A stretch of DNA of 64,000 nt from Treponemataceae bacterium (GTDB lineage Bacteria > Spirochaetota > Spirochaetia > Treponematales > Rectinemataceae), in assembly GCA_963667725.2 (NCBI GenBank), contig CAXXHO010000005.1:416001-480000 (forward strand), written 5' to 3'. The position numbers and the translations under genes were made by a program. The notes under the pieces are model-generated. The model worked only from the letters and a program-made list of their open reading frames with translations. It had not been told where the DNA came from and made no database searches. This document shows, one piece after another, positions 8,238 through 63,719 of this stretch; within the stretch, counting starts at the first letter, position 1; each line of letters opens with the position of its first letter.

Positions 8238-10160
8238 CTGGCGTTGTACAGTGTGTGGTATAAAGCAGCAAGTAATAAAGTAGCTTAATATATTATACTG
8301 ACAACAAATAACTAAAAACGGACTGTACAAAAAGCATGATACAAATGCGGTATAAGATATCTATAAATATTCGAAATAAAACTTTACAGATAAAACACTA
8401 TGTTGTATAATTAGCGGTATAATGAACGTACGAAAATGTACCCTAAAGAATGCTCAAGGCGGTACCTATACTTACCTTCAACTTGTGCACAACTACCGCG
8501 TTAAGGAAACAGGAAAGACCAAGACCAATGTCCTTATGAAGCTCGGACGGGAAGATCAGATCGAGCCTTCCTACATCCAGGCGATCATTAAGGCATTGTC
8601 CGCGGTCTTGGGCGAATCTTCTTCCGGGACGTTTGCCGAATTTGACTTCCACGCAAGCAGGGAGCTTGGCGGCACCTGGCTTCTCGATGCTTTGTGGAAT
8701 CGACTCGGCATGGCCAAGGCTATCAAAGGGCTTCTTAAGGAACGACAGTTCGCCACACCCGTTGAACGGCTCTGCTTTGCCATGGTTTCAGGAAGAATAC
8801 TCGCTCCGGGTTCGAAGCTTTCTCTTGAGCACTGGGTTTCAAAGAAAGCCTTTATTAAAGACCTTAACGAGGTAGACGTTCATAATCTTTATAGGGCGAT
8901 GGATCTTCTTGTGGCGTCGAACGAGGAACTCCAGAAGCAGATATTCACCGAAGTGTCGAAGAATACGCATCTCGACGTGGATCTCATCTTCCTCGATACG
9001 ACGAACACCTATTTCGAGACCGATGAAGATGCTTCCAGCTCGGGACTCTTAAAACGTGGCCACAGCAAGGATGGGCACCCCGAGCTACCCTTGGTTTCGA
9101 TTGCCTTTGCGGTGACGCGTAGCGGCATTCCTATTCGCTGCTGGGTATTCCCGGGCAACACGAGCGACCAGACGATCGTCGAGCAGGTGAAAGGTGATCT
9201 AGGACAGTGGAATCTTGGTCATGTCGTCATGGTCCAAGATGCAGGATTCAATAGTGCCGACAACAGAAGAATCCTTTTACGGGAATGCGGTGACTATATC
9301 ATCGGCGAAAAGCTCCGCGTTGGTACCGATGGCGCCGCGGTAGAAGCCCTACACCGGAAAGGGCGATTCAGGATCCTGGAAAGTGGCCTCGCGATTAAAG
9401 ATGTCGTCCTCGATGCAGGGAAAGCCACGGAGCGCCGATTCATCATCGTCAAGAATCCGGAAGCCGAAACGCGCGACCATGTCATACGCGAACAAATCGT
9501 CGATGCTACGAAGCGCAAGCTTGATGAACTGTCGCAGTATACGGGGAAAGCACACACGAAAGCGGCGTGTGCGCTACGCTCTCATTCCGCCTATGGCAGA
9601 TACATTAGGCAGGATACGAAGGGTGTCTTGCACCTCGACACCGCCAAGATAGCCTCAGAGGAACTCCTTGATGGCAAGTTTCTAGTGTCGACGTCCAGCA
9701 TGAAGCTGGATGCTGCCGATATTGTTGCCGGCTATAAGCAGCTCTGGGCCATAGAGCGGGTATTCAAGGATATGAAAAACACCTTGGATATTCGTCCCAT
9801 ATACCACCGACTTGATGATCGTATTCGAAGCCATATTCTTATTTGCTGGCTTGCCATGGTGCTGGTACGGTATGCAGAGAATATGGCGGACCGGTCGTGG
9901 TACCAGATTGAAAAAGTTCTGTCCGATGTTACTGCAGGGCTTATTGAGAGCGACAATGTAAGCCTCTGGTATTGCTCTGATATTTCCGACGAGGCGAAGG
10001 ACATTTTCAAGCGCTTAACTATTGAATTACCAAAGAAAGTTCTTGCTACAGTAGCAAGAGATCCTGTTGCGGTATAAAAGATTTTCGACTGCAATCGTAT
10101 AACTCTATTATTTATAGAGTATTAGCAAGATTTTCTATACCGCGCACTGTACAACGCCAG
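8238..10160 (+). mobile_element. IS1634-family element, copy 2 (1923 bp)
   Basis: Same TIRs; TSD CTGAT. Confidence 0.92.
8422..10077 (+). CDS. IS1634-family transposase
   Basis: 551 aa, near-identical to copy 1. Confidence 0.9.
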   Translation: MNVRKCTLKNAQGGTYTYLQLVHNYRVKETGKTKTNVLMKLGREDQIEPSYIQAIIKALSAVLGESSSGTFAEFDFHASRELGGTWLLDALWNRLGMAKAIKGLLKERQFATPVERLCFAMVSGRILAPGSKLSLEHWVSKKAFIKDLNEVDVHNLYRAMDLLVASNEELQKQIFTEVSKNTHLDVDLIFLDTTNTYFETDEDASSSGLLKRGHSKDGHPELPLVSIAFAVTRSGIPIRCWVFPGNTSDQTIVEQVKGDLGQWNLGHVVMVQDAGFNSADNRRILLRECGDYIIGEKLRVGTDGAAVEALHRKGRFRILESGLAIKDVVLDAGKATERRFIIVKNPEAETRDHVIREQIVDATKRKLDELSQYTGKAHTKAACALRSHSAYGRYIRQDTKGVLHLDTAKIASEELLDGKFLVSTSSMKLDAADIVAGYKQLWAIERVFKDMKNTLDIRPIYHRLDDRIRSHILICWLAMVLVRYAENMADRSWYQIEKVLSDVTAGLIESDNVSLWYCSDISDEAKDIFKRLTIELPKKVLATVARDPVAV

Positions 10161-16329: not shown

Positions 16330-18252
16330 CTGGCGTTGTACAGTGTGTGGTATAAAGCAGCAAGTAATAAAGTAGCTTAATATATTATACTGACAACAAA
16401 TAACTAAAAACGGACTGTACAAAAAGCATGATACAAATGCGGTATAAGATATCTATAAATATTCGAAATAAAACTTTACAGATAAAACACTATGTTGTAT
16501 AATTAGCGGTATAATGAACGTACGAAAATGTACCCTAAAGAATGCTCAAGGCGGTACCTATACTTACCTTCAACTTGTGCACAACTACCGCGTTAAGGAA
16601 ACAGGAAAGACCAAGACCAATGTCCTTATGAAGCTCGGACGGGAAGATCAGATCGAGCCTTCCTACATCCAGGCGATCATTAAGGCATTGTCCGCGGTCT
16701 TGGGCGAATCTTCTTCCGGGACGTTTGCCGAATTTGACTTCCACGCAAGCAGGGAGCTTGGCGGCACCTGGCTTCTCGATGCTTTGTGGAATCGACTCGG
16801 CATGGCCAAGGCTATCAAAGGGCTTCTTAAGGAACGACAGTTCGCCACACCCGTTGAACGGCTCTGCTTTGCCATGGTTTCAGGAAGAATACTCGCTCCG
16901 GGTTCGAAGCTTTCTCTTGAGCACTGGGTTTCAAAGAAAGCCTTTATTAAAGACCTTAACGAGGTAGACGTTCATAATCTTTATAGGGCGATGGATCTTC
17001 TTGTGGCGTCGAACGAGGAACTCCAGAAGCAGATATTCACCGAAGTGTCGAAGAATACGCATCTCGACGTGGATCTCATCTTCCTCGATACGACGAACAC
17101 CTATTTCGAGACCGATGAAGATGCTTCCAGCTCGGGACTCTTAAAACGTGGCCACAGCAAGGATGGGCACCCCGAGCTACCCTTGGTTTCGATTGCCTTT
17201 GCGGTGACGCGTAGCGGCATTCCTATTCGCTGCTGGGTATTCCCGGGCAACACGAGCGACCAGACGATCGTCGAGCAGGTGAAAGGTGATCTAGGACAGT
17301 GGAATCTTGGTCATGTCGTCATGGTCCAAGATGCAGGATTCAATAGTGCCGACAACAGAAGAATCCTTTTACGGGAATGCGGTGACTATATCATCGGCGA
17401 AAAGCTCCGCGTTGGTACCGATGGCGCCGCGGTAGAAGCCCTACACCGGAAAGGGCGATTCAGGATCCTGGAAAGTGGCCTCGCGATTAAAGATGTCGTC
17501 CTCGATGCAGGGAAAGCCACGGAGCGCCGATTCATCATCGTCAAGAATCCGGAAGCCGAAACGCGCGACCATGTCATACGCGAACAAATCGTCGATGCTA
17601 CGAAGCGCAAGCTTGATGAACTGTCGCAGTATACGGGGAAAGCACACACGAAAGCGGCGTGTGCGCTACGCTCTCATTCCGCCTATGGCAGATACATTAG
17701 GCAGGATACGAAGGGTGTCTTGCACCTCGACACCGCCAAGATAGCCTCAGAGGAACTCCTTGATGGCAAGTTTCTAGTGTCGACGTCCAGCATGAAGCTG
17801 GATGCTGCCGATATTGTTGCCGGCTATAAGCAGCTCTGGGCCATAGAGCGGGTATTCAAGGATATGAAAAACACCTTGGATATTCGTCCCATATACCACC
17901 GACTTGATGATCGTATTCGAAGCCATATTCTTATTTGCTGGCTTGCCATGGTGCTGGTACGGTATGCAGAGAATATGGCGGACCGGTCGTGGTACCAGAT
18001 TGAAAAAGTTCTGTCCGATGTTACTGCAGGGCTTATTGAGAGCGACAATGTAAGCCTCTGGTATTGCTCTGATATTTCCGACGAGGCGAAGGACATTTTC
18101 AAGCGCTTAACTATTGAATTACCAAAGAAAGTTCTTGCTACAGTAGCAAGAGATCCTGTTGCGGTATAAAAGATTTTCGACTGCAATCGTATAACTCTAT
18201 TATTTATAGAGTATTAGCAAGATTTTCTATACCGCGCACTGTACAACGCCAG
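16330..18252 (+). mobile_element. IS1634-family element, copy 3 (1923 bp)
   Basis: Same TIRs; TSD CCGAG. Confidence 0.92.
16514..18169 (+). CDS. IS1634-family transposase
   Basis: Protein identical to copy 2. Confidence 0.9.
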   Translation: MNVRKCTLKNAQGGTYTYLQLVHNYRVKETGKTKTNVLMKLGREDQIEPSYIQAIIKALSAVLGESSSGTFAEFDFHASRELGGTWLLDALWNRLGMAKAIKGLLKERQFATPVERLCFAMVSGRILAPGSKLSLEHWVSKKAFIKDLNEVDVHNLYRAMDLLVASNEELQKQIFTEVSKNTHLDVDLIFLDTTNTYFETDEDASSSGLLKRGHSKDGHPELPLVSIAFAVTRSGIPIRCWVFPGNTSDQTIVEQVKGDLGQWNLGHVVMVQDAGFNSADNRRILLRECGDYIIGEKLRVGTDGAAVEALHRKGRFRILESGLAIKDVVLDAGKATERRFIIVKNPEAETRDHVIREQIVDATKRKLDELSQYTGKAHTKAACALRSHSAYGRYIRQDTKGVLHLDTAKIASEELLDGKFLVSTSSMKLDAADIVAGYKQLWAIERVFKDMKNTLDIRPIYHRLDDRIRSHILICWLAMVLVRYAENMADRSWYQIEKVLSDVTAGLIESDNVSLWYCSDISDEAKDIFKRLTIELPKKVLATVARDPVAV

Positions 18253-18337: not shown

Positions 18338-18500
18338 GTTAGAATTTTCACCCCAAAGAGCACTTCTTTCTTCTCTTCTCTTTAACTTATCTATTTTCTT
18401 CTTTTCGTCGTTTTTTATATGCACGTAACATGCGAGAATAAGGGAAAGACGCACCGCTTCTCTTCCCTTTTCGAGCAGCTGAACAACTAATAATTCTAAC
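18338..18500 (-). other. Very short cassette with no self-contained ORF
   Basis: ~160 bp between attC12 and attC13; cores GTTAGAA/TTCTAAC. Confidence 0.8.
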
Positions 18501-42065: not shown

Positions 42066-43988
42066 CTGGCGTTGTACAGTGCGCGGTATAGAAAATCTTG
42101 CTAATACTCTATAAATAATAGAGTTATACGATTGCAGTCGAAAATCTTTTATACCGCAACAGGATCTCTTGCTACTGTAGCAAGAACTTTCTTTGGTAAT
42201 TCAATAGTTAAGCGCTTGAAAATGTCCTTCGCCTCGTCGGAAATATCAGAGCAATACCAGAGGCTTACATTGTCGCTCTCAATAAGCCCTGCAGTAACAT
42301 CGGACAGAACTTTTTCAATCTGGTACCACGACCGGTCCGCCATATTCTCTGCATACCGTACCAGCACCATGGCAAGCCAGCAAATAAGAATATGGCTTCG
42401 AATACGATCATCAAGTCGGTGGTATATGGGACGAATATCCAAGGTGTTTTTCATATCCTTGAATACCCGCTCTATGGCCCAGAGCTGCTTATAGCCGGCA
42501 ACAATATCGGCAGCATCCAGCTTCATGCTGGACGTCGACACTAGAAACTTGCCATCAAGGAGTTCCTCTGAGGCTATCTTGGCGGTGTCGAGGTGCAAGA
42601 CACCCTTCGTATCCTGCCTAATGTATCTGCCATAGGCGGAATGAGAGCGTAGCGCACACGCCGCTTTCGTGTGTGCTTTCCCCGTATACTGCGACAGTTC
42701 ATCAAGCTTGCGCTTCGTAGCATCGACGATTTGTTCGCGTATGACATGGTCGCGCGTTTCGGCTTCCGGATTCTTGACGATGATGAATCGGCGCTCCGTG
42801 GCTTTCCCTGCATCGAGGACGACATCTTTAATCGCGAGGCCACTTTCCAGGATCCTGAATCGCCCTTTCCGGTGTAGGGCTTCTACCGCGGCGCCATCGG
42901 TACCAACGCGGAGCTTTTCGCCGATGATATAGTCACCGCATTCCCGTAAAAGGATTCTTCTGTTGTCGGCACTATTGAATCCTGCATCTTGGACCATGAC
43001 GACATGACCAAGATTCCACTGTCCTAGATCACCTTTCACCTGCTCGACGATCGTCTGGTCGCTCGTGTTGCCCGGGAATACCCAGCAGCGAATAGGAATG
43101 CCGCTACGCGTCACCGCAAAGGCAATCGAAACCAAGGGTAGCTCGGGGTGCCCATCCTTGCTGTGGCCACGTTTTAAGAGTCCCGAGCTGGAAGCATCTT
43201 CATCGGTCTCGAAATAGGTGTTCGTCGTATCGAGGAAGATGAGATCCACGTCGAGATGCGTATTCTTCGACACTTCGGTGAATATCTGCTTCTGGAGTTC
43301 CTCGTTCGACGCCACAAGAAGATCCATCGCCCTATAAAGATTATGAACGTCTACCTCGTTAAGGTCTTTAATAAAGGCTTTCTTTGAAACCCAGTGCTCA
43401 AGAGAAAGCTTCGAACCCGGAGCCAGGATCCTGCCTGCAACCATGGCAAAGCAGAGCCGTTCGACGGGTGTGGCGAACTGGCGTTCGTTAAGAAGCCCTT
43501 TGATAGCCTTTGCCATGCCAAGACGATTCCATAGGGCATCTAGAAGCCAGGTGCCCCCAAGCTCCCGACTTGAATGGAAGTCAAATCCGGCGGGGACTTC
43601 AGAAGGATATTCGCCTAAGACCGCAGACAGTGCCTTGATGATCGCCTGGATGTAGGAAGGCTCGATCTGATCTTCCCGTCCGAGCTTCATAAGGACATTG
43701 GTTTTGGTCTTTCCTGTTTCCTTGACGCGGTAGTTGTGCACAAGTTGAAGGTACGTATAGGTACCGCCTTGAGCATTCTTTAGGGTACATTTCCGTACGT
43801 TCATTATACCGCTAATTATACAACATAGTGTTTTATCTGTAAAGTTTTATTTCGAATATTTATAAATATCTTATACCGCATTTGCATCATGCTTTTTGTA
43901 CAGTCCGTTTTTAGTTATTTGTTGTCAGTATAATATATTAAGCTGCTTTATTGCTTACTGTATTATACCACACGCTGTACAACGTCAG
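42066..43988 (-). mobile_element. IS1634-family element, copy 4 (1923 bp)
   Basis: Same TIRs; TSD CTGAG. Confidence 0.92.
42149..43804 (-). CDS. IS1634-family transposase (mosaic allele)
   Basis: 551 aa. Confidence 0.9.
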   Translation of the reverse strand: MNVRKCTLKNAQGGTYTYLQLVHNYRVKETGKTKTNVLMKLGREDQIEPSYIQAIIKALSAVLGEYPSEVPAGFDFHSSRELGGTWLLDALWNRLGMAKAIKGLLNERQFATPVERLCFAMVAGRILAPGSKLSLEHWVSKKAFIKDLNEVDVHNLYRAMDLLVASNEELQKQIFTEVSKNTHLDVDLIFLDTTNTYFETDEDASSSGLLKRGHSKDGHPELPLVSIAFAVTRSGIPIRCWVFPGNTSDQTIVEQVKGDLGQWNLGHVVMVQDAGFNSADNRRILLRECGDYIIGEKLRVGTDGAAVEALHRKGRFRILESGLAIKDVVLDAGKATERRFIIVKNPEAETRDHVIREQIVDATKRKLDELSQYTGKAHTKAACALRSHSAYGRYIRQDTKGVLHLDTAKIASEELLDGKFLVSTSSMKLDAADIVAGYKQLWAIERVFKDMKNTLDIRPIYHRLDDRIRSHILICWLAMVLVRYAENMADRSWYQIEKVLSDVTAGLIESDNVSLWYCSDISDEAKDIFKRLTIELPKKVLATVARDPVAV

Positions 43989-54087: not shown

Positions 54088-54155
54088 ATTTACCTCACAA
54101 TATTATCATTTATCAATGCACTTTTTTTATAAAAATCTGCGCGCGAAGCGCGTCC

Positions 54156-54306
54156 GCCTAACATTTTCGCTTAACCTTTAAGCCCGGCCTGAGCGTAAGC
54201 GAAGGCTTGGCGCGATTCTTGCACCACTTTACGCTGCCGCTCCTACTTTACGGGGTCTCGCAAGAAGCGTGACAAAGGGCTTATAAGGTTGAAGCGGATG
54301 TTAGAA
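54156..54306 (-). repeat. attC site 51 (long attttc subtype)
   Basis: attC palindrome. Confidence 0.92.
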
Positions 54307-54528
54307 AGCGTTCATGTTCCTTAACACTTATACCAGTGCAGCTCAACACTGTTAGAAAATACGCTGCATTTCAGAGAAATACCGAGATGAAATTGTCAGT
54401 GTTTACTTTAGGTAAATGCTGCAATGAATCTCGGCAATAAAAGATGCAGCGTATTTTCTAACATGAAATCTTACATTCTTTTCTTACATTTACTCTTTTA
54501 TTTTCTTCGAGCCATACGTCTTTCTAAC
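54300..54528. other. ORF-less cassette containing a ~114-nt rod-like hairpin (54350-54463), copy A; candidate structured ncRNA or ssDNA element
   Basis: Perfect 20-bp IR plus nested 7-bp and 10-bp stems; near-identical copy at 62625-62851. Confidence 0.8.
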
Positions 54529-54648
54529 ATTCGTTTAACCTTTAAACCACGTTCCCGAGCAAAGCGAGGGATTGGCACGTGTTTTTGCATAAGACTTCAT
54601 GCAAAAACCGTGACAAAGTGGTTTATAAGGTTGAAACGGTTGTTATAT
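54522..54648 (-). repeat. attC site 52 (variant)
   Basis: cgtttaacc...ggttgaaacg compensatory stem. Confidence 0.9.
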
Positions 54649-54733
54649 GCTTTTTATTTATTACCATGATTGTTTATACAGTATAAATAATTATAAAATA
54701 ATAGAACTATGTTGACTGTTTTACAACTATTTC

Positions 54734-55648
54734 CTAATTTTCCAAACCATCTACTTCAGAGTTTTCTATATTAAGAATTGTAGCTGAGTCATTATTTTGC
54801 AGAAATCCCTTATCAATAGATCGAACTTTACTAGTCCCAATTTTCTTTAAGTTAATAAATGTTCTAGACCATACCATTGATCCCATATTATAAAGAAATG
54901 TTGCTGAATATGGTACTATAAAACTTCCATAATATGGATCACGAATATAGATATTACCATATTTATCGTAACCATAAATTACTACAACATGTCCAGAAAA
55001 AGAGCCTTGATATGCTGCAATTAATGGCATTCCTTTATTAATATTTTGTTGAAGAGTTATAAAGCTCAAAGGATTAAAAACTACTTTTGCATCCATATTT
55101 CCAAGTCCATTGAGTGCATAAATAAGCTGATTATCATTTGCTGTTGTTACATATGGAGCCCCAAATACATATGTTACAATTGTGCTCTGTGAATAATTAC
55201 AGTTATAGTATTTTAAAACCATTTGAGCACAGGCAGCCCAACACCATACTTGAGTTTGTTGATACGATAGTCCAACATCTATTGTTTCTACTCCAGAGAC
55301 CGCTGGTTCAGCATCATTTCCCAAGGAAAATGCTGGTAATATTTTTTTATCCGTTAAGCTACTATATTTTGCTGTTACAGTATAATATCCAGGGATATTC
55401 GTAGAAAAGTATTCATCAGTAAATATTTCACCATCAATAAAGATAATTGGCTCGAGATTAGGTATAATTTGGTCATTGTCATTATAAACATTACAGCCAA
55501 TAAAGATTTTATCTATGCCATTGCCAACGACACCAACCTTATCAAAATAGATTTTTATATATTCAGGATCATAATCAAAACAAAGAGAACATCCTGAGAT
55601 AAATAAAGAAAAACAAACTACAACATACTTTTTTATTAGGCTTTTCAT
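54734..55648 (-). CDS. Lipoprotein with papain-like (C39/C70-type) cysteine peptidase domain
   Basis: Lipobox-like FISGC; QQTQVWCWAAC, GHVVVIYG, IRDP. Confidence 0.75.
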   Translation of the reverse strand: MKSLIKKYVVVCFSLFISGCSLCFDYDPEYIKIYFDKVGVVGNGIDKIFIGCNVYNDNDQIIPNLEPIIFIDGEIFTDEYFSTNIPGYYTVTAKYSSLTDKKILPAFSLGNDAEPAVSGVETIDVGLSYQQTQVWCWAACAQMVLKYYNCNYSQSTIVTYVFGAPYVTTANDNQLIYALNGLGNMDAKVVFNPLSFITLQQNINKGMPLIAAYQGSFSGHVVVIYGYDKYGNIYIRDPYYGSFIVPYSATFLYNMGSMVWSRTFINLKKIGTSKVRSIDKGFLQNNDSATILNIENSEVDGLEN

Positions 55649-55754
55649 AAAATCCCTCTTTTGTTGATAATATTTAAAGCTTAATATTATGTGCAAATAA
55701 TACTAATATTTATTATTATTCAAAATAAAGAGTTTTATTCTGCCCGAAGGGTCC

Positions 55755-55905
55755 ATATAACATTTTCGCTTAACCTTTAAGCCCGACCTGAGCGTAGCGA
55801 AGGTTTGGCGCGATTCTTGCACCACTTTACGTTGCCGCTCCTACTTTACAGTATCTCGCAAGAATCGTGACAACAGGGCTTATAAGGTTGAAGCGAGTGT
55901 TAGGT
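55755..55905 (-). repeat. attC site 53 (long attttc subtype)
   Basis: attC palindrome. Confidence 0.92.
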
Positions 55906-55950
55906 CTCTTTTTCTTACTTTAATTACCGGATAACTAATTGTTTTTCTCG

Positions 55951-56385
55951 TTAAATTCTTTTCTTAAATGAATATCCTTTCTTTATATATCCTCGTTTCT
56001 CATAAAAATCATGTGCATTGATTCTCTGAATTCCACTGTTTAAAACTATTGTAGCTGCATTAACGTTTCTAGCATATTTTTCTGCTTCTTCAAGTAATCT
56101 ACTTCCGATTCCCTTATTTTGATATTCTTTCTTTACAGCAAGTGCAGCAACTCTTATATAGTCGCCATCAATTTCATAAGCAAACCCTCGTATCAATCCT
56201 ATGAATCCAACTACTGTATTATCATATTCTGCAATGAATGTACTATAATCAGTATGATTTTTTATCTTATTGAGTCGCAATGCAACATCAAAATCTGAGG
56301 AATTTTTATACCCTAAATCATTTCTGATTATATCTGCAATACAGGAATAGTCTCTTTCATCAATTGCCCTAATAGTACACGTCAT
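55951..56385 (-). CDS. GNAT acetyltransferase
   Basis: LAVKKEYQNKGIGSRLL, AHDFYEKRGY. Confidence 0.9.
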   Translation of the reverse strand: MTCTIRAIDERDYSCIADIIRNDLGYKNSSDFDVALRLNKIKNHTDYSTFIAEYDNTVVGFIGLIRGFAYEIDGDYIRVAALAVKKEYQNKGIGSRLLEEAEKYARNVNAATIVLNSGIQRINAHDFYEKRGYIKKGYSFKKRI

Positions 56386-56490
56386 ATTGTTCTCTTTTAT
56401 CTCAATGAAACACAGAGCACTATTTTAGATTTTTACTGAATCTAATCAACCATAATATTCACGCTTCTTACTCTTCGGCGCGAAGCGTCG

Positions 56491-56616
56491 ACCTAACATT
56501 TTCGCTTAACCTTTAAATCCGTCCTGAGCGTAGCGAAGGATTGGCGCGCATTTTGCATTGTTGTTCCTGCAAAATGCGTGTCAACAGGATTTATAAGGTT
56601 GAAGCGGGTGTTAGGT
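56491..56616 (-). repeat. attC site 54 (attttc subtype)
   Basis: attC palindrome. Confidence 0.92.
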
Positions 56617-57453
56617 GCTTAGTTTTCTTTCTGCTGATTCAACCGTTTGACACATAAGTGTCACAATTGTCATCGGACCTACTCCTCCAGGAACAGGAGT
56701 ATATGCTGATGCTTTCGCATATGCTTCTTTCTCAACATCCCCTATTCCACCAGGATGATATCCTGCATCTACTATTACTGCCCCATCCTTAATCCAATTT
56801 GCCTTAACAAAGTTAGGCTTTCCAATTGCCGCTACAACAATATCAGCTTCTTGAATAATTGATTCAATGTTTTCTGTTCTTGAATGACATATTGTAATCG
56901 TTGCATTCTCATTTAAAAGCAGCATAGTAATAGGTTTTCCAAGAATTGCACTTCTCCCAATAACCACGGCCTTCTTCCCCACCATAGGTATCTTATAGTA
57001 CTTGAGTAGTTTAATAATCCCACCAGGAGTTGCTGAAACAAAGGCATGTTCACCTAATGCCATCTGACCAAATCCAAGAGCAGTCACACCATCGACATCT
57101 TTTTGAGAATCTATTCTATCAAAACAAATTCTTTCATCAATCTGTTTTGGAACAGGATGCTGCAATAAAATACCAAATACACTACTATCATTATTTAATG
57201 TATCGATAACTGAAAGCAATTCATCCGTCGTTGTAGTTTCACTCAGTTCAACTTTCTTCGTACCAAGGCCTATTCTCTTGCAAGTATTGCCTTTCATTGT
57301 GACATATATCTTTGATGAAGGATCGTTGCCCACTAAAATCGTAGCCAATACTGGTTGAATAGTTGATTGTGTTATGATCTTTTTAACACGTTCTTTTAAT
57401 TCAAGCTCAAGTTCAGTAGCCAATTTCTTTCCATCAAGTACAATTTGTTCCAT
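56611..57453 (-). CDS. folD: Bifunctional methylene-THF dehydrogenase/cyclohydrolase
   Basis: LDGKK, YVTMK, GILLQHP, KDVDG, GRSAILGKP, TPVPGGVGPMT; AGGAA SD before ATG 57453. Confidence 0.93.
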   Translation of the reverse strand: MEQIVLDGKKLATELELELKERVKKIITQSTIQPVLATILVGNDPSSKIYVTMKGNTCKRIGLGTKKVELSETTTTDELLSVIDTLNNDSSVFGILLQHPVPKQIDERICFDRIDSQKDVDGVTALGFGQMALGEHAFVSATPGGIIKLLKYYKIPMVGKKAVVIGRSAILGKPITMLLLNENATITICHSRTENIESIIQEADIVVAAIGKPNFVKANWIKDGAVIVDAGYHPGGIGDVEKEAYAKASAYTPVPGGVGPMTIVTLMCQTVESAERKLST

Positions 57454-57482
57454 GTATGTTTCCTTTTGCGCCGAAGGCGTCC

Positions 57483-57617
57483 ACCTAACATCGGGCTTAA
57501 CCTTTAAAGCCTGTTCCTGAGCGAAGCGAGGGATTGGCGTGGTTTTTGCGTGAAGGAGCGTAGCGACTCGCAAAAACCATGACAAAAGGCTTTATAAGGT
57601 TGAAGCAGTTGTTCGGT
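57483..57617 (-). repeat. attC site 55
   Basis: attC palindrome. Confidence 0.92.
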
Positions 57618-57625
57618 GCTTATTA

Positions 57626-58465
57626 TTACCAATTTCTATATGTAAGTTGAGATTTATAAAGCCCTTTCCCTTTTTGTGGTATAAATAACAAACCATTTCT
57701 ATCGCAAAAATCTTCAACAGCAATATAGTTAATTTCTTGTTTAGGATTGGCACTGATAATAACTTCCATTATCATTTGTTCTATATCAAAATTGCTAATC
57801 TTATAATATGGTAATATAGAATTATTTCTATAACGAAATTCATAATTTTTTGAAGGATTATGCACCCCAGCAATTATTAGTCTCCATTCCTGTTCTTCTT
57901 CAAATTCTTCCATTTTTATTATTGGACTATATATTATTAATCGACTTATAAGATCTGATCCAAGATTTATAAGCCCCATGCCTTTTTGTTTTTCAAAACT
58001 ATCATTAATAATTTCATCTATTAGTTTAATATGATCTTTACTATTATAGACACATTTACATAAAAATATATCATCTACATCAATGGTAGATATTTTCCTT
58101 AAATAGTAAGAGTTAACACCAATACAAAATCCAGGTATGCTATTTGCGTATCCTCGCCATTGACTCAATTTATCCCTTTGAGTCGACATCGAGAAAACAC
58201 ATGTCATTTGATCAGCTTGTATCTTTAATAAAGATATTAATTGATTAGCCTCATCTCCACTTAAGCCAAATTCATCTTTTCTTTGCCAAATCCTATCCAA
58301 AAGTAATATTTTTGGATATTCAAATTCAGCAATATCGTTACAATATAAATAATTTGATGCCCATATTTCCTTTTTTGATATTATACCTAAAAATGACTCT
58401 GCATCTGTATAATGGTACAATACTTCTGGAGGTTCTTGGTCTCTAAGCAATTTGAACTCACTCAT
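57626..58465 (-). CDS. DUF2971-family protein
   Basis: LYHYT, CNDIAE, DKLSQWRGYA...GFCIG, EQEWR. Confidence 0.82.
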   Translation of the reverse strand: MSEFKLLRDQEPPEVLYHYTDAESFLGIISKKEIWASNYLYCNDIAEFEYPKILLLDRIWQRKDEFGLSGDEANQLISLLKIQADQMTCVFSMSTQRDKLSQWRGYANSIPGFCIGVNSYYLRKISTIDVDDIFLCKCVYNSKDHIKLIDEIINDSFEKQKGMGLINLGSDLISRLIIYSPIIKMEEFEEEQEWRLIIAGVHNPSKNYEFRYRNNSILPYYKISNFDIEQMIMEVIISANPKQEINYIAVEDFCDRNGLLFIPQKGKGLYKSQLTYRNW

Positions 58466-58500
58466 TAATAACTCTCCAAATTTTGGCGCCGAAGGCGTCC

Positions 58501-58626
58501 ACCGAACATTGGCTTAACCCTTAACGCCTGTTCCTGAGCGAAGCGAAGGATTGGCGTGGTTTTTGCATTGTTGTTCTTGCAAAAACCATGACAAAAGGCG
58601 TTATAGGGTTGAAGCAGGTGTTAGCC
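58501..58626 (-). repeat. attC site 56
   Basis: attC palindrome. Confidence 0.93.
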
Positions 58627-58644
58627 GATTGTATTTTAAATCTT

Positions 58645-59403
58645 CTAAATATTCATTTTTATTTCATCATTTTCAATTATATATTCCATTAGCGTATCAA
58701 ATATATAGCCTAACATAATAGTTATATCATCAATCCATTTTTTACAAATATTCCCCCACTTTTTTCGAATAGACCTAAATGCATCTGTTTTAATACTCTT
58801 CATGTAGTTAACAAAATCCTTGTCATCACTTTTTTCAAGAAGACAAAGACTATGAATTTGTTCTACATCGCTATCAGAGTATCGATCTTGATGAACGTGC
58901 AATCCACGAATATTATTGACACCACTAAATAGCTTAACATTTTTCCTTTTTAGAATTTCAATTATTTTGAATAGCTCTTCACTTTTACTTAATTTATAAT
59001 ATCGCTCAATTTTGCTTAGTAATGAGTTAATTCTATTATTTATAATATATAATTCATTAAGAAAACTATTTATATGATATCTTATATACTCTTCTTCAGT
59101 GATTTGTAGCTTTTTACTATAGCCATGCTTGAAGAAACTTTTACTTATCTCTAGATTATCTATTGAAGACATTACCTCTGAAAGAGGTTTAAAATAATAA
59201 TTGATAAATTTTAATTGCTCTTCACTTAAATTATTTTTTTCTAAAGAATGCGGCCCCTCAGTATTAAATATTACATTAGATAGTACTACTCCTAATTCTT
59301 TGTCCTTTCTTAATGTGGCTTCAGTCAAGTACTTTACAGCTTGATCAATAATTATCTTTTGATAACTAATATATTTTTTTTGATATTCTTCAATTTTTTT
59401 CAT
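58645..59403 (-). CDS. HEPN-like (Cthe_2314-like) protein
   Basis: YIRYHINSF...RGLHVH. Confidence 0.6.
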   Translation of the reverse strand: MKKIEEYQKKYISYQKIIIDQAVKYLTEATLRKDKELGVVLSNVIFNTEGPHSLEKNNLSEEQLKFINYYFKPLSEVMSSIDNLEISKSFFKHGYSKKLQITEEEYIRYHINSFLNELYIINNRINSLLSKIERYYKLSKSEELFKIIEILKRKNVKLFSGVNNIRGLHVHQDRYSDSDVEQIHSLCLLEKSDDKDFVNYMKSIKTDAFRSIRKKWGNICKKWIDDITIMLGYIFDTLMEYIIENDEIKMNI

Positions 59404-59438
59404 ATGCTATCTATTATAGATATATGCCCGAAGGGTCC

Positions 59439-59587
59439 GGCTAACATTGGCTTAACCTTTAAAGCCTGGCCCGAGCGGCGTTGCGTAGCAACGATGCGAG
59501 GGATTGGCGTGGTTTTTGCGTAGAGGAGCGAAGCGACTCGCAAAAACCATGACAAAAGGCTTTATAAGGTTGAAGCATTTGTTAGCT
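59439..59587 (-). repeat. attC site 57
   Basis: attC palindrome. Confidence 0.93.
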
Positions 59588-59666
59588 GAATTATACTAAA
59601 CATATTTATTAACAAGGCTTTCTCGTCTTAGTAATTATCATTCTTTCAAATATTCTTCTATATCTA

Positions 59667-61538
59667 TTATACCGTTTTTTTAAAAAAACTTTCTCTTGCA
59701 TACATATATTTAGGATAATTATTATAATGTTCTTTTAAAACTAATAATAGCATTTTATCGTTAAGTGATTCATTAATGCTTGCTATTTTATATTTTTCTA
59801 AAACAGAATTGAAATTATTCTTTTCTACAATTTCATTAAATATTCTTTCGAATGAATCAAAATTTGCATCAAACGGTATAAGCATTGTTTGTTTATCAAG
59901 CAACTTATTTTCAATTTCTATATATCTAGAGTATAATGCAATAAATGAGACATTTATTTCTTGGCTAACATTAAAATCAGGTTTTTCTTGTATTAATCGG
60001 TTAACAAATGTCATAATAAAACTTGTTCTATCTACTATTTTAATTATATGGTTTAATACAAGATTTGAGAAATACAAGCTCTGATCAGATGAAAGAGTTA
60101 CAGCAACTGCAAATTCATTCGGTAAAATATTAATATAATTTTTAATAACATATATATCAGGCAATCGACTTATAAATTCAGCAGTGAGATATTCTTGTAG
60201 AGATTTATGTGTAAATTCATACGATTGAAAGCTACATTTAATAATTAATCCAGTATGACTTTCTATCTCTTCAACTACTGATTCAACTTGATCTTTCGGT
60301 AGATCATAGTTCACATATATTTCTTTATATACTTCTTTCAATTCATATGTAGTGAATATATTTTTTTTAATCTTTATAGTAATTTTATATGCTATATTAC
60401 TAATAAATTCAAATTTTCTATCAGTTTCAAATCTTGAATACTTCGTACCACGAATAATTGCTCTTTGCTGATCCCATTCCTCAAGTAATAAGTTAACAAT
60501 TTTCCTATACACTGTTCTAGGTTTTTCTGGAATTGACCCAGACCTTTCATAAATTGCACATAAGTGTGCAAGAGTTAATGGCTTAATTGTTGCATCATAA
60601 AAAGGAGAGTTTTCTATTTGAGCAAGTAATATTTCATTACTACTTTTTTGTGGAAACCATCTCTTTACAAATTTCTTTATTTGTTCCTTATCTAAAGGAG
60701 CAATTTCGTATTGTTCTACTTTTTCCATTACAATTAGCTGTTCACCAGTTCTTATTGTTGAAATAACTTTACATGTATTTAAATTTTTAGCCATAAAATT
60801 AATGTTAAATAATATTGATTTTTTCATATCTTCTGAAATTGATTCATCGATTCCTTCAATTATTAAATATGAACATACTTTATCTAGATAATTACAAATA
60901 CGACGTCGATACTCTAAATTATACCTCTTTTCTTTATCTTCACTATCATCAATTTCATTATTACCTTTATTATTAATTAAAATTTGGATTATTGCATTAT
61001 TAATATTCTTAATTCCGAGAGTATCAACAATATGATCAAATATTATATTTGAAATTTTATCATTATTCTTTGACTTTACTCCAAGAAGCATTTCTCTTAC
61101 AATAATTAAAATCGGTATTTGCTTTGCTTTTTCTACATCAATTCCTTCTATTACTTTATTAATAAAATATTTCATTGATGTTGTCTTTCCTGAACCAGGT
61201 TGCCCCATTATCATTAAATGGTTCTCTTCCTTTGCAATAATTTTAATTAGCTTTTCTTTTCTAATATTTTCTTTATCACTAATTCTTATCGATTTTGGAT
61301 ATAAATATGTGTCAAGTTGTATATAAACATTAGCCATTTTTTGTGAATGTGGTAAATCACGAAAGTTGATTTCTTCAGCCCACGATTTGCAGTAATGAAT
61401 ATGGCTTTTTATACTTTCGGTAATACTCATCTTATTCTCAACAATTGATAGTAACTTCTCTTTATGAGATTCTATCTCGGAAAATAATGCCGAACTTAAT
61501 CTTGATGCGGTTTCAATTGCCATCATTTGAAGGTCCAT
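59667..61538 (-). CDS. NACHT/STAND-family NTPase
   Basis: GQPGSGKTT, LIIEGIDE, STIR, PLTL, FTHKSLQEYLTA. Confidence 0.85.
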   Translation of the reverse strand: MDLQMMAIETASRLSSALFSEIESHKEKLLSIVENKMSITESIKSHIHYCKSWAEEINFRDLPHSQKMANVYIQLDTYLYPKSIRISDKENIRKEKLIKIIAKEENHLMIMGQPGSGKTTSMKYFINKVIEGIDVEKAKQIPILIIVREMLLGVKSKNNDKISNIIFDHIVDTLGIKNINNAIIQILINNKGNNEIDDSEDKEKRYNLEYRRRICNYLDKVCSYLIIEGIDESISEDMKKSILFNINFMAKNLNTCKVISTIRTGEQLIVMEKVEQYEIAPLDKEQIKKFVKRWFPQKSSNEILLAQIENSPFYDATIKPLTLAHLCAIYERSGSIPEKPRTVYRKIVNLLLEEWDQQRAIIRGTKYSRFETDRKFEFISNIAYKITIKIKKNIFTTYELKEVYKEIYVNYDLPKDQVESVVEEIESHTGLIIKCSFQSYEFTHKSLQEYLTAEFISRLPDIYVIKNYINILPNEFAVAVTLSSDQSLYFSNLVLNHIIKIVDRTSFIMTFVNRLIQEKPDFNVSQEINVSFIALYSRYIEIENKLLDKQTMLIPFDANFDSFERIFNEIVEKNNFNSVLEKYKIASINESLNDKMLLLVLKEHYNNYPKYMYARESFFKKTV

Positions 61539-61782
61539 ATATACTCCATAGATTCAAACTTTAAATATAAATTTTTATTTAATGTTTTGAGTCAAAATCA
61601 TCATTTATACTATATTTATTTATATACACAGCACTCATTTATAATTGATTTTTTGAAATTTTAGCTTTATCGTTCTTTATTCACATAATTATCAATCCTT
61701 ACTATGATTTAATTCCATAATTACAAATATACAATATATGCGATAATATATTTGGCATGATTTTTATGCGCCGAAGGCGTCC

Positions 61783-61908
61783 AGCTAACATTTTCGCTTA
61801 ACCTTTAAATCCGTCCTGAGCGATAGCGAAGGATTGGCGTGGTTTTTGCGTGATCTTCTCGCAAAAACCATGACAACAGGATTTATAAGGTTGAAGCGGA
61901 TGTTAGGT
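61783..61908 (-). repeat. attC site 58 (attttc subtype)
   Basis: attC palindrome. Confidence 0.92.
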
Positions 61909-62397
61909 AATTTTTTCCCCATACATTCTTTGTTCTACATTCCATGTCTTTCCATTATCGAACGATACTTCATCTATCCACGTAAATGCATACTCCGTTA
62001 TGTCTTTAAATCTCCATATCTCTTTCTTATCGTTTAATCCTAATAACTCTTGTATGATTTCTTTATTCTCTTCTCTTCCCACTAAGTGCGCAAATTCATT
62101 ATTACTCGGTTGCATCCAACTTACATGCCATATATCTTTTTTGATGTCGTAGCACCTAATGGTTGTCCCATATGTATCTCTAGGATAGCCATCTGCATAT
62201 AAAACATCTTGAATACCTAAGCCGCCTAGTATCCAAGCAAAATGCCATTCTCCAGTAGCTTCTCTAGTTTCTCCATTTGAATTATACCAAATAGATCGTA
62301 TTTTCCAGCTTCCAATAAGCTGTCCATAGAGCATTACTTTCTGTTTATATGCTTCATTTGCAGTTGATGCTCGTATGAGATCAAAAATGTCTTGCAT
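61903..62397 (-). CDS. Hypothetical beta-rich protein (DUF1579-like)
   Basis: Close paralog of 45090-45584. Confidence 0.65.
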   Translation of the reverse strand: MQDIFDLIRASTANEAYKQKVMLYGQLIGSWKIRSIWYNSNGETREATGEWHFAWILGGLGIQDVLYADGYPRDTYGTTIRCYDIKKDIWHVSWMQPSNNEFAHLVGREENKEIIQELLGLNDKKEIWRFKDITEYAFTWIDEVSFDNGKTWNVEQRMYGEKIT

Positions 62398-62480
62398 TGT
62401 CGCTCCTTAAAAACTAAGAAAGCTTTAAATTGCAATTTGAAAGCTTGTAGTAATGATCTTCTTGCGCGCCGAAGGCGTCT

Positions 62481-62631
62481 ACCTAACATTTTCGCTTAAC
62501 CTTTAAGCCCGACCTGAGCGTAAGCGAAGGTTTGGCGCGATTCTTGCAACACTTTACGTTGCCGCTCCTACTTTACTGAATCTCGCAAGAAGCGTGCCAA
62601 AGGGCTTATAAGGTTGAAGCGGGTGTTAGAA
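62481..62631 (-). repeat. attC site 59 (long attttc subtype)
   Basis: attC palindrome. Confidence 0.92.
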
Positions 62632-62851
62632 AGCGTTCATGTTCCTTAAAACTTATACCTGGGCAGCTTAACACTGTTAGAAAATGCGCTGCATTTCAGA
62701 GAAATACCGAGATGAGTTGTCAGCGTTTACTTTAGGTAAATGCTGCAATGAATCTCGGCAATAAAAGATGCAGCGTATTTTCTAACATGAAATCTTACAT
62801 TCTTTTCTTACATTACCTTTTCTTTTTCTTCGAGCCATACGTCTTTCTAAC
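62625..62851. other. ORF-less hairpin cassette, copy B
   Basis: Homolog of 54300-54528 with structure-compatible substitutions. Confidence 0.8.
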
Positions 62852-62969
62852 ATTGGCTTAACCCTTAACGCCTGTTCCTGAGCGAAGCGAAGGATTGGCG
62901 TGGTTTTTGCGTCATCTTCTCGCAAAAACCATGACAAAAGGCGTTATAGGGTTGAAGCATTTGTTAGAG
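62845..62969 (-). repeat. attC site 60
   Basis: Dominant attC subtype. Confidence 0.93.
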
Positions 62970-63719
62970 CCTTTTTTTTATACCAAACAAACCTAAAGGA
63001 TCTTGTTCTAAAGCTTCCCTATATAATCCAATTATTTTATTAACTTCGAAAAACATACATTTTGATTTGCCAATATAAATTTCATTAATATATCCTTTTT
63101 TATATGCCAAATCTTGTATGGTATACCATGGTTGTGTTGTAGGTTTTCCAGTTTCAATACACCATTCATCTTCTAGATATTTTTTTAAAACCTCTTCTGA
63201 TGGTTTGAATATTTCAACTATTTGACTAGGTAAATTATTTTCTACATAATGCATGCTTGTTAATTTATAAATATCTACACCTAGGAGAAGAGCAAAACCA
63301 TTTTTTGAATGAAGATTACATAAATTATGTGAATTTAACTCTGCTTCATTACCCCAGGCAGCAACTCTATGTAATCCTTTTCCAACAATTACTTCTAGAT
63401 CATTTTTAAAAGTATCAGCAATAATTCCCATTCCTGTACGCTCTTTGGAATCTTCTTTTAATATTTTTAGTTTAGTGACTAATCCATAATTAATATCTTC
63501 GTTGGTTAATTGCATATTTCCAGAGATTGGAAATGCTGGCATTATTATTGCACCTGCCTTTGTAATAATATTTTTTAATGCATTTATTATAGTTACAGCA
63601 CCATTTTGAACATGGCCAAAACTGGATAATGAACTATGAACTTCAACATACATACCTTTTTTTAATCCAATTTTAAGTAATCCATTTTGAATATCATCTA
63701 AAGTCAAATTATTTTCCAA
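62964..63719 (-). CDS. AAC(3)/YokD-family (Antibiotic_NAT) N-acetyltransferase
   Basis: VHSSLSSFG, GAIIMPAF, MGIIAD, LLLGV, TSMHYVE. Confidence 0.82.
   Translation of the reverse strand: MENNLTLDDIQNGLLKIGLKKGMYVEVHSSLSSFGHVQNGAVTIINALKNIITKAGAIIMPAFPISGNMQLTNEDINYGLVTKLKILKEDSKERTGMGIIADTFKNDLEVIVGKGLHRVAAWGNEAELNSHNLCNLHSKNGFALLLGVDIYKLTSMHYVENNLPSQIVEIFKPSEEVLKKYLEDEWCIETGKPTTQPWYTIQDLAYKKGYINEIYIGKSKCMFFEVNKIIGLYREALEQDPLGLFGIKKRL

What the first reader, a model, noticed from the sequence alone, without database searches (positions are those of the whole stretch)
54300..62851. Duplicated ORF-less cassette encoding a conserved ~114-nt rod-like hairpin (candidate mobile structured ncRNA or ssDNA element)
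Seen: two ~228-bp cassettes (54300-54528 and 62625-62851) lack any substantial ORF. Copy A folds into nested stems: a perfect 20-bp outer stem (tgttagaaaatacgctgcat 54350-54369 with 54444-54463), ccgagat/atctcgg, and cagtgtttac/gtaaatgctg. The two copy-B substitutions inside these stems (A>G giving G.T; T>C turning T.G into C-G) keep pairing on the + strand but give A.C mismatches on the minus strand. The 3' arm is invariant between copies. The hairpin ends repeat the cassette's own core, GTTAGAA...TTCTAAC, pointing inward, which is the opposite of an attC. Inference: selection acts on a + strand structure, antisense to the array and on the same strand as the folded attC. Candidates are a structured ncRNA, an integrase decoy or secondary site, or an antisense regulator of the 18-codon minus-strand sORF (54464-54408, MLENTLHLLLPRFIAAFT), as in type I TA systems.
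Basis: partly seen in the sequence, partly recalled or inferred. Interest (0 to 1): 0.85.

Follow-up and report, generated by a model that had tools for sequence, protein, structure and literature searches.

The report
Gene-less integron cassette with conserved hairpin
A small mobile DNA cassette in a spirochaete's gene-capture array carries no gene, only a 114-base rod-shaped hairpin whose shape is kept in a copy from another genus, so it probably works as a folded RNA or DNA element; its function and its working strand are untested.

Summary
The hairpin is real: perfect 20-bp outer stem, z about -11. It is the cargo of a gene-less integron cassette with six copies in one spirochaete array, each with its own attC and different neighbours. 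One homolog in another genus (G036) keeps the rod through 3 compensatory pairs in the outer stem, while the internal loops diverge (61/82 vs 13/27 identical, p=0.017). A third, 137-nt match occurs in a metagenome run, letters unseen. The + strand is not favoured (5 vs 3 wobble events, p=0.73), and the 18-codon ORF is broken in the homolog. I found no Rfam, MITE, retron, promoter or terminator match, and no sign of recombination at the inner GTTAG/CTAAC. Best reading (0.45): a cassette-borne structured RNA that is processed from, or stabilises, array transcripts. Expression is untested. Gene-less cassettes are a known class. This scan earlier noted other gene-less hairpin cassettes in spirochaetes, one in this genome; none matched this one by sequence.

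The parts
54158..54304 (-). attC belonging to copy A (long type). The cassettes read on the minus strand, so the + strand is the bottom strand.
   Evidence: Sequence; repeat families D10/D12; all six copies carry this attC type.
54300..54528 (-). Copy A: gene-less cassette body, 229 bp, with 9-bp complementary core ends
54341..54349 (.). Unpaired left flank of the hairpin, conserved with the G036 homolog. It holds a -35-like hexamer on the + strand in five copies and in G036, changed by one base in copy A.
   Evidence: Alignments; promoter scan of G036
54350..54463 (.). 114-nt rod hairpin of copy A: 20-bp outer stem (54350-54369 with 54444-54463), variable internal loop, 7-bp middle helix, inner helices, and a conserved 5-nt terminal loop (54407-54411). 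Working strand undetermined.
   Evidence: Folds; covariation; identity by region
54408..54464 (-). 18-codon small ORF, open in all six copies of this genome but broken in the G036 homolog; judged not functional
54464..54478 (-). Unpaired 15-nt flank, identical in all six copies and in G036. On the minus strand it holds a -10-like hexamer ending 4 nt before the first paired base; it also resembles the 3' half of an attC.
   Evidence: no full sigma-70 promoter called in copy A
54524..54646 (-). attC of the neighbouring cassette (peptidase C39/C70-like gene) on the attI side of copy A
62483..62629 (-). attC belonging to copy B
62625..62851 (-). Copy B: gene-less cassette body, 227 bp, identical to the copy at G000:C5:487187
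62675..62787 (.). 113-nt rod hairpin of copy B
62847..62967 (-). attC of the neighbouring cassette (aminoglycoside 3-N-acetyltransferase-family gene) on the attI side of copy B

Best explanation
SHOWN: this is a gene-less integron cassette (body plus its own attC). Six copies lie in a large spirochaete chromosomal array whose integrase gene points the same way as the cassettes. The conserved cargo is a 113-114-nt rod hairpin with short conserved flanks. INFERRED: the integrase moved and duplicated it, and the hairpin works as RNA. Most likely it is made on the array-sense (minus) strand, by read-through of array transcripts or from the conserved -10-like flank next to the stem base. It would fold into a rod with a closing duplex of 20 bp or more, long enough for RNase III. 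It would then serve as a processing or stabilising point in the polycistronic array transcript, or be released as a stable small RNA. In that way it could tune expression of whichever cassette lies downstream. The strand, the transcript and the nuclease step are all unshown.
For: Six copies, each with the same long attC type and different neighbours, at positions 83-104 from attI among 162 parsed cassettes. IntI above the family cut-off lies at the array end, on the cassette strand. A homolog in another genus sits directly behind an attC. It has 3 double-sided changes in the 20-bp stem, and 97.5% of cells stay paired across 33 pairs. Against G036, stems are 61/82 identical, internal loops 13/27 (Fisher p=0.017) and the terminal loop 5/5. 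Among the six copies the outer stem varies at 1 of 40 columns and the 16-nt flank at 0 of 16. A biofilm metagenome contig matches 54333-54469 over 137 nt with 14 differing letters and 5 gaps; the piece listed stops just outside the hairpin. All 10 of 243 cassette bodies with a perfect inverted repeat of 17 bp or more are among the 27 with no ORF over 70 aa; gene-bearing bodies reach at most 13 bp. RNase III is encoded. Most Vibrio gene-less cassettes drive sense-strand transcription, and attC sites do not terminate it (PMC11014356, abstract and Discussion).
Against: Covariation rests on one independent homolog; the shuffle control (9/500) ignores relatedness. Template switching can create compensatory changes without selection (PMC8794818, abstract). 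Wobble polarity picks no strand. Copy A has no sigma-70 promoter or intrinsic terminator call. There is no Rfam match. The inner helix collects unpaired states among near-identical copies. By eye, the outer stem shares no sequence with the flanks of this genome's 16S rRNA. DNA and RNA hairpins cannot be told apart from sequence alone (PMC5737381, passages).
Confidence: 0.45

Rival explanations
1. The fold works as single-stranded DNA during the mobile phase. The excised ~370-nt bottom-strand circle is largely self-paired, with the attC arm at one end and the rod at the other. That could protect it or favour reinsertion, making it a selfish or semi-selfish cassette that gains copies without helping the host.
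For: In the predicted fold of the circular cassette the attC core pairs normally and the rod forms a second arm. Gene-less families are multi-copy here: 6, 12 and 5 copies. Wobble states lean 5:3 to the bottom strand, not significantly. Boucher et al. offered selfishness as one of two options for Vibrio non-coding cassettes (PMC1382264, passages).
Against: The unpaired flanks and terminal loop are conserved in sequence across genera, which mere self-pairing does not need. D and G036 fold better on the other strand as RNA. Six copies is modest, and one gene-bearing family has 7.
Confidence: 0.2
2. It is a promoter cassette of the known kind, and the inverted repeat is a DNA-level control site (operator pair or cruciform) for that promoter.
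For: G036 has a 10/12 sigma-70 match with an extended -10 on the + strand, and its -35 lies in the conserved left flank (3 sites found vs 0.9 expected). Promoter activity is shown for most Vibrio gene-less cassettes tested and for some Treponema ones, and the Vibrio paper reports that it cannot be predicted in silico (PMC11014356 outline and abstract; PMC6557892). Other gene-less cassettes sit first behind attI in two of this genome's three integrase-linked arrays.
Against: Copy A has 0 promoter calls, and the -10 seen in G036 is absent from all six copies. A promoter does not explain nested helices with a shifted but re-paired middle stem.
Confidence: 0.15
3. It is a neutral relic. A template switch or aberrant recombination duplicated a cassette-start sequence in inverted form, and template-switch repair keeps the arms matched without selection.
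For: The stem begins with an attC-junction-like sequence. Inside the 243 cassette bodies, the half-attC-like pattern had 9 hits: the six copies, two missed attC sites and one other place. Template switching creates and maintains stems (PMC8794818, abstract).
Against: Position-specific conservation of unpaired flanks and loop across genera, with divergent internal loops. Retention in three lineages, although cassettes are easily excised.
Confidence: 0.09
4. The stem base is an integrase decoy or a secondary recombination site.
For: The stem ends in a GTTAG/CTAAC duplex unique to this family among 243 bodies, and the minus-strand flank has the spacing of an attC 3' half.
Against: No arm is joined to foreign sequence anywhere in the genome (12 of 12 arm matches lie in intact copies). 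One inner core is changed in G036. The flanks do not pair into an L box. Similarity to the attI-upstream regions reached p<0.01 in only 1 of 12 comparisons, and not for G036.
Confidence: 0.07
5. It is a type I toxin-antitoxin unit with an 18-aa toxin, or a MITE sitting in an empty cassette.
For: The small ORF is open in all six copies, with one synonymous and one replacement change. The arms form 20-bp terminal inverted repeats.
Against: The G036 frame lacks the ATG and has two stops. The arms match no other place in the genome at up to 3 mismatches, nor the ends of the 551-aa IS. The flanks are conserved across genera, and no target duplication is visible.
Confidence: 0.04

Closest known systems
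Paralogous non-coding cassettes of Vibrio chromosomal integrons (Boucher et al. 2006, PMC1382264; passages read)
   Same: No ORF over 150 bp, multi-copy within one array, homologs only in close relatives, function open (selfish, promoter or RNA).
   Different: Spirochaete reverse integron; much shorter body; homology to the relative is 76% and concentrated on a covarying hairpin. The terms 'secondary structure' and 'inverted repeat' do not occur in that paper's main text.
Gene-less 'promoter cassettes' of Vibrionaceae (Blanco et al. 2024, PMC11014356; abstract and Discussion read) and ORF-less Treponema cassettes (Tansirichaiya et al. 2019, PMC6557892; first part and passages read)
   Same: Gene-less body with a normal attC; the Treponema cases come from the same type of integron with co-oriented intI.
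   Different: The Vibrio cassettes are 491-666 bp and defined by measured promoter activity. Here the cassette is about 370 bp, copy A has no consensus promoter, and the conserved feature is a rod hairpin.
sRNA-Xcc1 of Xanthomonas integron cassettes (original paper not held; known from passages of PMC6557892 and bioRxiv 10.1101/2025.06.18.660453)
   Same: A cassette-borne non-coding RNA spread by integrons.
   Different: No Rfam match here. sRNA-Xcc1 is reported upstream of symE in its cassette, whereas this cassette has no gene.
attC sites (folded bottom-strand ssDNA recombination sites)
   Same: Long imperfect hairpin that includes a GTTAG/CTAAC duplex.
   Different: The cores point inward instead of outward, there is no paired L box, and no strand bias is seen.

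Membership tests
Gene-less (ORF-less) integron cassette | Body bounded by attC cores and carrying its own attC, in an array with IntI and attI | tested here: met
Gene-less (ORF-less) integron cassette | No ORF longer than 150-210 bp | tested here: met
   Longest ORFs are 18-35 aa. No translated search of the body was run.
Gene-less (ORF-less) integron cassette | Moves as an independent unit | tested here: met
   Six copies with different neighbours and a homolog in another genus's array. Excision itself was not assayed.
Promoter cassette (Blanco 2024; Tansirichaiya 2019) | Measured promoter activity or a mapped start site | not testable with these tools
   No RNA run listed
Promoter cassette (Blanco 2024; Tansirichaiya 2019) | Sigma-70-like consensus | tested here: inconclusive
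   0 sites in copy A; one 10/12 site in G036
Known Rfam RNA family | Covariance-model match | tested here: not met
   0 hits at gathering score in the window; only 3 snoRNA matches at E 0.3-0.6, far below gathering, in L001 and L014
Structured ncRNA (general) | Covariation in homologs | tested here: inconclusive
   3 double-sided changes, all from one homolog; positive but underpowered
Structured ncRNA (general) | Transcript on a defined strand | not testable with these tools
   wobble polarity 5 vs 3, p=0.73
attC / secondary IntI site | Outward cores with paired R and L boxes and an extrahelical base (definition recalled) | tested here: not met
   Cores point inward; no L-box pairing in the folds
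attC / secondary IntI site | IntI binding or recombination | not testable with these tools
   No recombined junctions among 12 arm matches
Type I toxin-antitoxin | Conserved small toxin ORF | tested here: not met
   ORF broken in G036
MITE | Terminal repeats matching a resident IS, varied insertion flanks, target duplication | tested here: not met
Retron msr-msd | Adjacent reverse transcriptase; msr stems and a branching G beside the a1/a2 stem (definition recalled) | tested here: not met
   The only RT match is about 600 kb away; the fold has one inner hairpin only
Intrinsic terminator | Short GC-rich stem followed by a T run | tested here: not met
   0 sites

The most novel reading that the evidence does not exclude
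Spirochaete integrons carry a class of cassettes whose payload is a fold, not a gene. Several unrelated families each keep a long hairpin while their flanks drift, and the integrase shuffles them as plug-in modules. They would act either as RNA-processing or stabilising points that re-partition the array transcript, or as self-paired ssDNA dumbbells that parasitise cassette recombination. This family, with its inward integrase-core motif at the stem base, would be one member, and might record how a cassette junction is turned into a new structured element.
Probability: 0.2. Interest if true: 0.8.

Novelty: new variant of a known kind. Interest (0 to 1): 0.45.

Why it matters
Gene-less cassettes make up 6-49% of Vibrio arrays (PMC1382264) and 27 of 243 parsed bodies here, yet the activities reported in the papers I read are promoter activity and one sRNA. 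This family gives a small (229 bp), well-bounded test object with natural compensatory variants from two genera. Break-and-restore mutants can directly separate an RNA role, an ssDNA mobility role and a promoter role. If the fold controls array transcripts or cassette reinsertion, it adds a regulatory layer to integrons, which spread resistance and defence genes.

Tried and rejected
Homolog searches with no further true hit:
- DNA search of 61 relatives: G036 only.
- Family, 69 genomes: G036 plus a 32-bp match to the cassette end in G088.
- Order, 401 genomes: seven more matches of 34 bp or less; I viewed their surroundings and they show no hairpin homolog.
- Phylum, 401 genomes, G036 as query: G000 only.
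- Covariance model: family 2 of 69, order 1 of 151, own genome six loci only.
- Class, 401 genomes, flank pattern: 6 hits outside G000 against 12 control hits; not inspected.
- JGI metagenomes: 1 hit, a chance match next to a eukaryote-like gene.
- Genome contigs: 9 hits, 8 chance and 1 with the same letters as L014.
- Viral contigs: five patterns gave 0, 0, 0, 3 and 7 hits, none homologous.
- Phages and plasmids: nothing better than E about 2.
- 74 inter-attC segments from 9 relatives, some counted on both strands: none homologous. The one model hit (E 0.088) lies in what reads as a protein-coding cassette.
These blanks are weak: only 14 of 68 family genomes hold even one exact attC end of this type, 65 in all.

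No RNA holder was listed among sequencing runs, which says nothing about expression. Of the small-share runs, 4 were laid; only X7 showed a listed piece over the hairpin, and the tables were cut.

Ideas considered and dropped:
- + strand selection, small-ORF toxin, MITE, retron.
- 6S-like RNA: no Rfam match, and the bubble geometry does not fit by eye; the genome has no 6S match either.
- attI mimic: 1 of 12 comparisons at p=0.003, pyrimidine-rich and absent in G036.
- Kinship with the other gene-less families: 2 of 16 comparisons at p<0.05, neither seen for G036.
- A trans antisense target in the genome: only two 7-mismatch matches to a 25-mer.
- Likeness to rRNA processing stems: none by eye.

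Seven paper searches returned no description of this family or of covarying rod hairpins in gene-less cassettes. The library lacks most subscription journals, and I read no supplements (cassette sequences of PMC6557892 and PMC11014356 may be there).
Full report
Setting. The window is G000:C5:416001-480000. It lies inside a cassette array of roughly 170 attC ends spanning C5 405-550 kb, with 30-40% GC against 55% for the contig. An integron integrase above the TIGR02249 cut-off lies at C5:550880-551806 on the minus strand, the strand on which the cassettes read. Two more integrase-linked arrays are on C1 and C7. This co-oriented layout is the 'reverse' integron described for Treponema (PMC6557892, Introduction). 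The host is called a spirochaete because a same-family relative's sequence carries a Spirochaetes record title.

Observation. Copy A folds into a 114-nt rod with a perfect 20-bp outer stem, and 0 of 200 shuffles match it on either strand, as RNA or as DNA. The genome holds six copies, at C5 470300, 478625, 480806, 484273, 487187 and 487551. They are 94-100% identical to A and five are distinct. Each has the same long attC type and different neighbours. They occupy positions 83-104 from attI among 162 parsed cassettes. I infer repeated integrase-driven insertion during one period of the array's history. Long perfect inverted repeats are not typical of cassettes: 10 of 243 parsed bodies have one of 17 bp or more, all among the 27 with no ORF over 70 aa, and gene-bearing bodies reach at most 13 bp.

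Homologs. One was found, in G036, a different genus of the same family, at 76% identity over query 42-179. It follows an attC directly, and what looks like an IS transposase gene cuts it off on the attI side (IS identity judged by eye, not searched). In the outer stem, 3 of 20 pairs changed on both sides, one became a wobble and one a mismatch on the + strand. The middle helix shifted register and still pairs over 7 bp. Identity is 61/82 in stems, 13/27 in internal loops (Fisher p=0.017) and 5/5 in the terminal loop. A 15-nt unpaired flank on one side and a 9-nt flank on the other are conserved. A biofilm metagenome contig (run X7, record 18) matches 54333-54469 with 14 differing letters and 5 gaps; its letters were not shown. 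All other searches were blank (see Tried and rejected). They are weak, because only 14 of 68 family genomes contain even one attC of this type. The covariation therefore rests on one independent sequence. The shuffle control (9/500) ignores relatedness, and template switching can produce such changes without selection (PMC8794818, abstract).

Strand. Any transition in a Watson-Crick pair gives G.U on one strand and A.C on the other, so two substitutions cannot fix a strand. Over six distinct sequences the tally is 5 for + and 3 for -, plus one C.C (p=0.73). RNA energies favour + in A, B and F, are level in C, and favour - in D and G036.

Small ORF. It is open in all six copies, but the G036 frame lacks the ATG and has two stops. 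A type I toxin is unlikely. One caveat is that the G036 cassette is truncated and could be decaying.

Integrase link. The stem base carries GTTAG/CTAAC pointing inward, which no other of the 243 bodies shows, and the minus-strand flank has the spacing of an attC 3' half. This may record an origin from a cassette junction. But the flanks form no L box and one inner core is changed in G036. All 12 arm matches in the genome lie in intact copies. In the predicted excised circle the true attC core pairs normally and the rod forms a second arm.

Other families tested. There is no Rfam match, no IS-end match and no neighbouring reverse transcriptase. Copy A has no terminator or sigma-70 promoter. G036 does have a 10/12 extended promoter on the + strand whose -35 is the conserved left flank, but its -10 is absent from this genome's copies.

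Class context. The same genome has further gene-less families. One has 562-bp (5 copies) and 491-bp (2 copies) forms that share only a covarying 66-67-nt hairpin. One is a 163-bp family of 12 copies with a near-invariant hairpin. One is a ~425-bp GC-rich family with relatives in G091 and G002. None shows consistent similarity to this family. Earlier, unchecked notes of this scan report the first of these and three gene-less hairpin or palindromic cassettes in other spirochaete-like genomes; none was found by this family's sequence.

Mechanism. Shown: a gene-less cassette with its own attC, six copies, and a conserved fold with conserved unpaired flanks and loop. Inferred: function as RNA (0.45), probably on the array-sense strand. 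That strand is covered by array read-through, attC sites do not terminate transcription, and most Vibrio gene-less cassettes drive sense transcription (PMC11014356). The closing duplex is long enough for RNase III (general knowledge), which the genome encodes, so it could act as a processing or stabilising point or yield a stable small RNA. Rivals are an ssDNA or selfish role of the self-paired circle (0.2), a promoter cassette (0.15), a neutral relic (0.09), an integrase decoy (0.07), and a toxin unit or MITE (0.04). No RNA data were available.

Comparison and verdict. It is a member of the known class of gene-less integron cassettes (PMC1382264, passages; PMC11014356, abstract and Discussion; PMC6557892, first part and passages; PMC8876359, passages). 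It differs in that its conserved payload is a covarying rod hairpin, which seven paper searches did not find described (no supplements read). It is not shown to be an RNA, and it fails the tests for attC, retron, MITE, terminator and type I TA. Verdict: a real feature and a new variant of a known kind, interest 0.45.

Noticed in passing
window 18338-18500 and G000:C5 496051-543659: A second gene-less cassette family (162-165 bp, 12 copies) with a near-invariant ~45-nt hairpin and variable pyrimidine-rich flanks, some copies in tandem.
   Followed up: partly
G000:C1 (8678, 16238, 25589, 29250 and first behind attI) and C5 (534565, 549393): Gene-less 562-bp and 491-bp cassettes that share only a covarying 66-67-nt hairpin with a 17-20-bp perfect stem; no relatives in 68 family genomes with the 491-bp form as query.
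   Followed up: partly
G000:C7 near 39123 and 43208; L062 (G091); L055 (G002): A ~425-bp GC-rich, strongly folding gene-less cassette family that also sits first behind the C7 attI. Relatives occur in two other genomes, and all four fold better on the array-sense strand by 6-13 kcal/mol.
   Followed up: partly
window 2445-4100, 8422-10077, 16514-18169, 42149-43804: Four copies of a 551-aa DDE transposase IS; three are inserted at the same place inside attC sites.
   Followed up: no
window 56611-57453: A folD gene (methylene-THF dehydrogenase/cyclohydrolase) carried as a cassette; close versions appear in metagenome runs X5 and X6.
   Followed up: no
window 62964-63719, 54734-55696, 59667-61538: Neighbouring cassettes encode an aminoglycoside 3-N-acetyltransferase-family protein, a peptidase C39/C70-like protein and a NACHT-type NTPase.
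   Followed up: no
many cassette starts, e.g. window 54140-54153, 57470-57481, 62468-62479: Short GC-rich hairpins recur just inside the cassette 5' ends, right after the core site.
   Followed up: no
G000:C5:1086274-1086735: The genome's only reverse-transcriptase match lies in a 1736-codon open frame, far from the arrays.
   Followed up: no
L072:3330-3822 (G023): Another gene-less cassette with four short internal direct repeats, next to an attC that carries an extra 43-nt perfect hairpin.
   Followed up: no
G000 whole genome: Three IntI genes above the family cut-off, each with its own array and a shared attI end, in one genome with 6.3% estimated contamination; no Rfam 6S RNA match.
   Followed up: no
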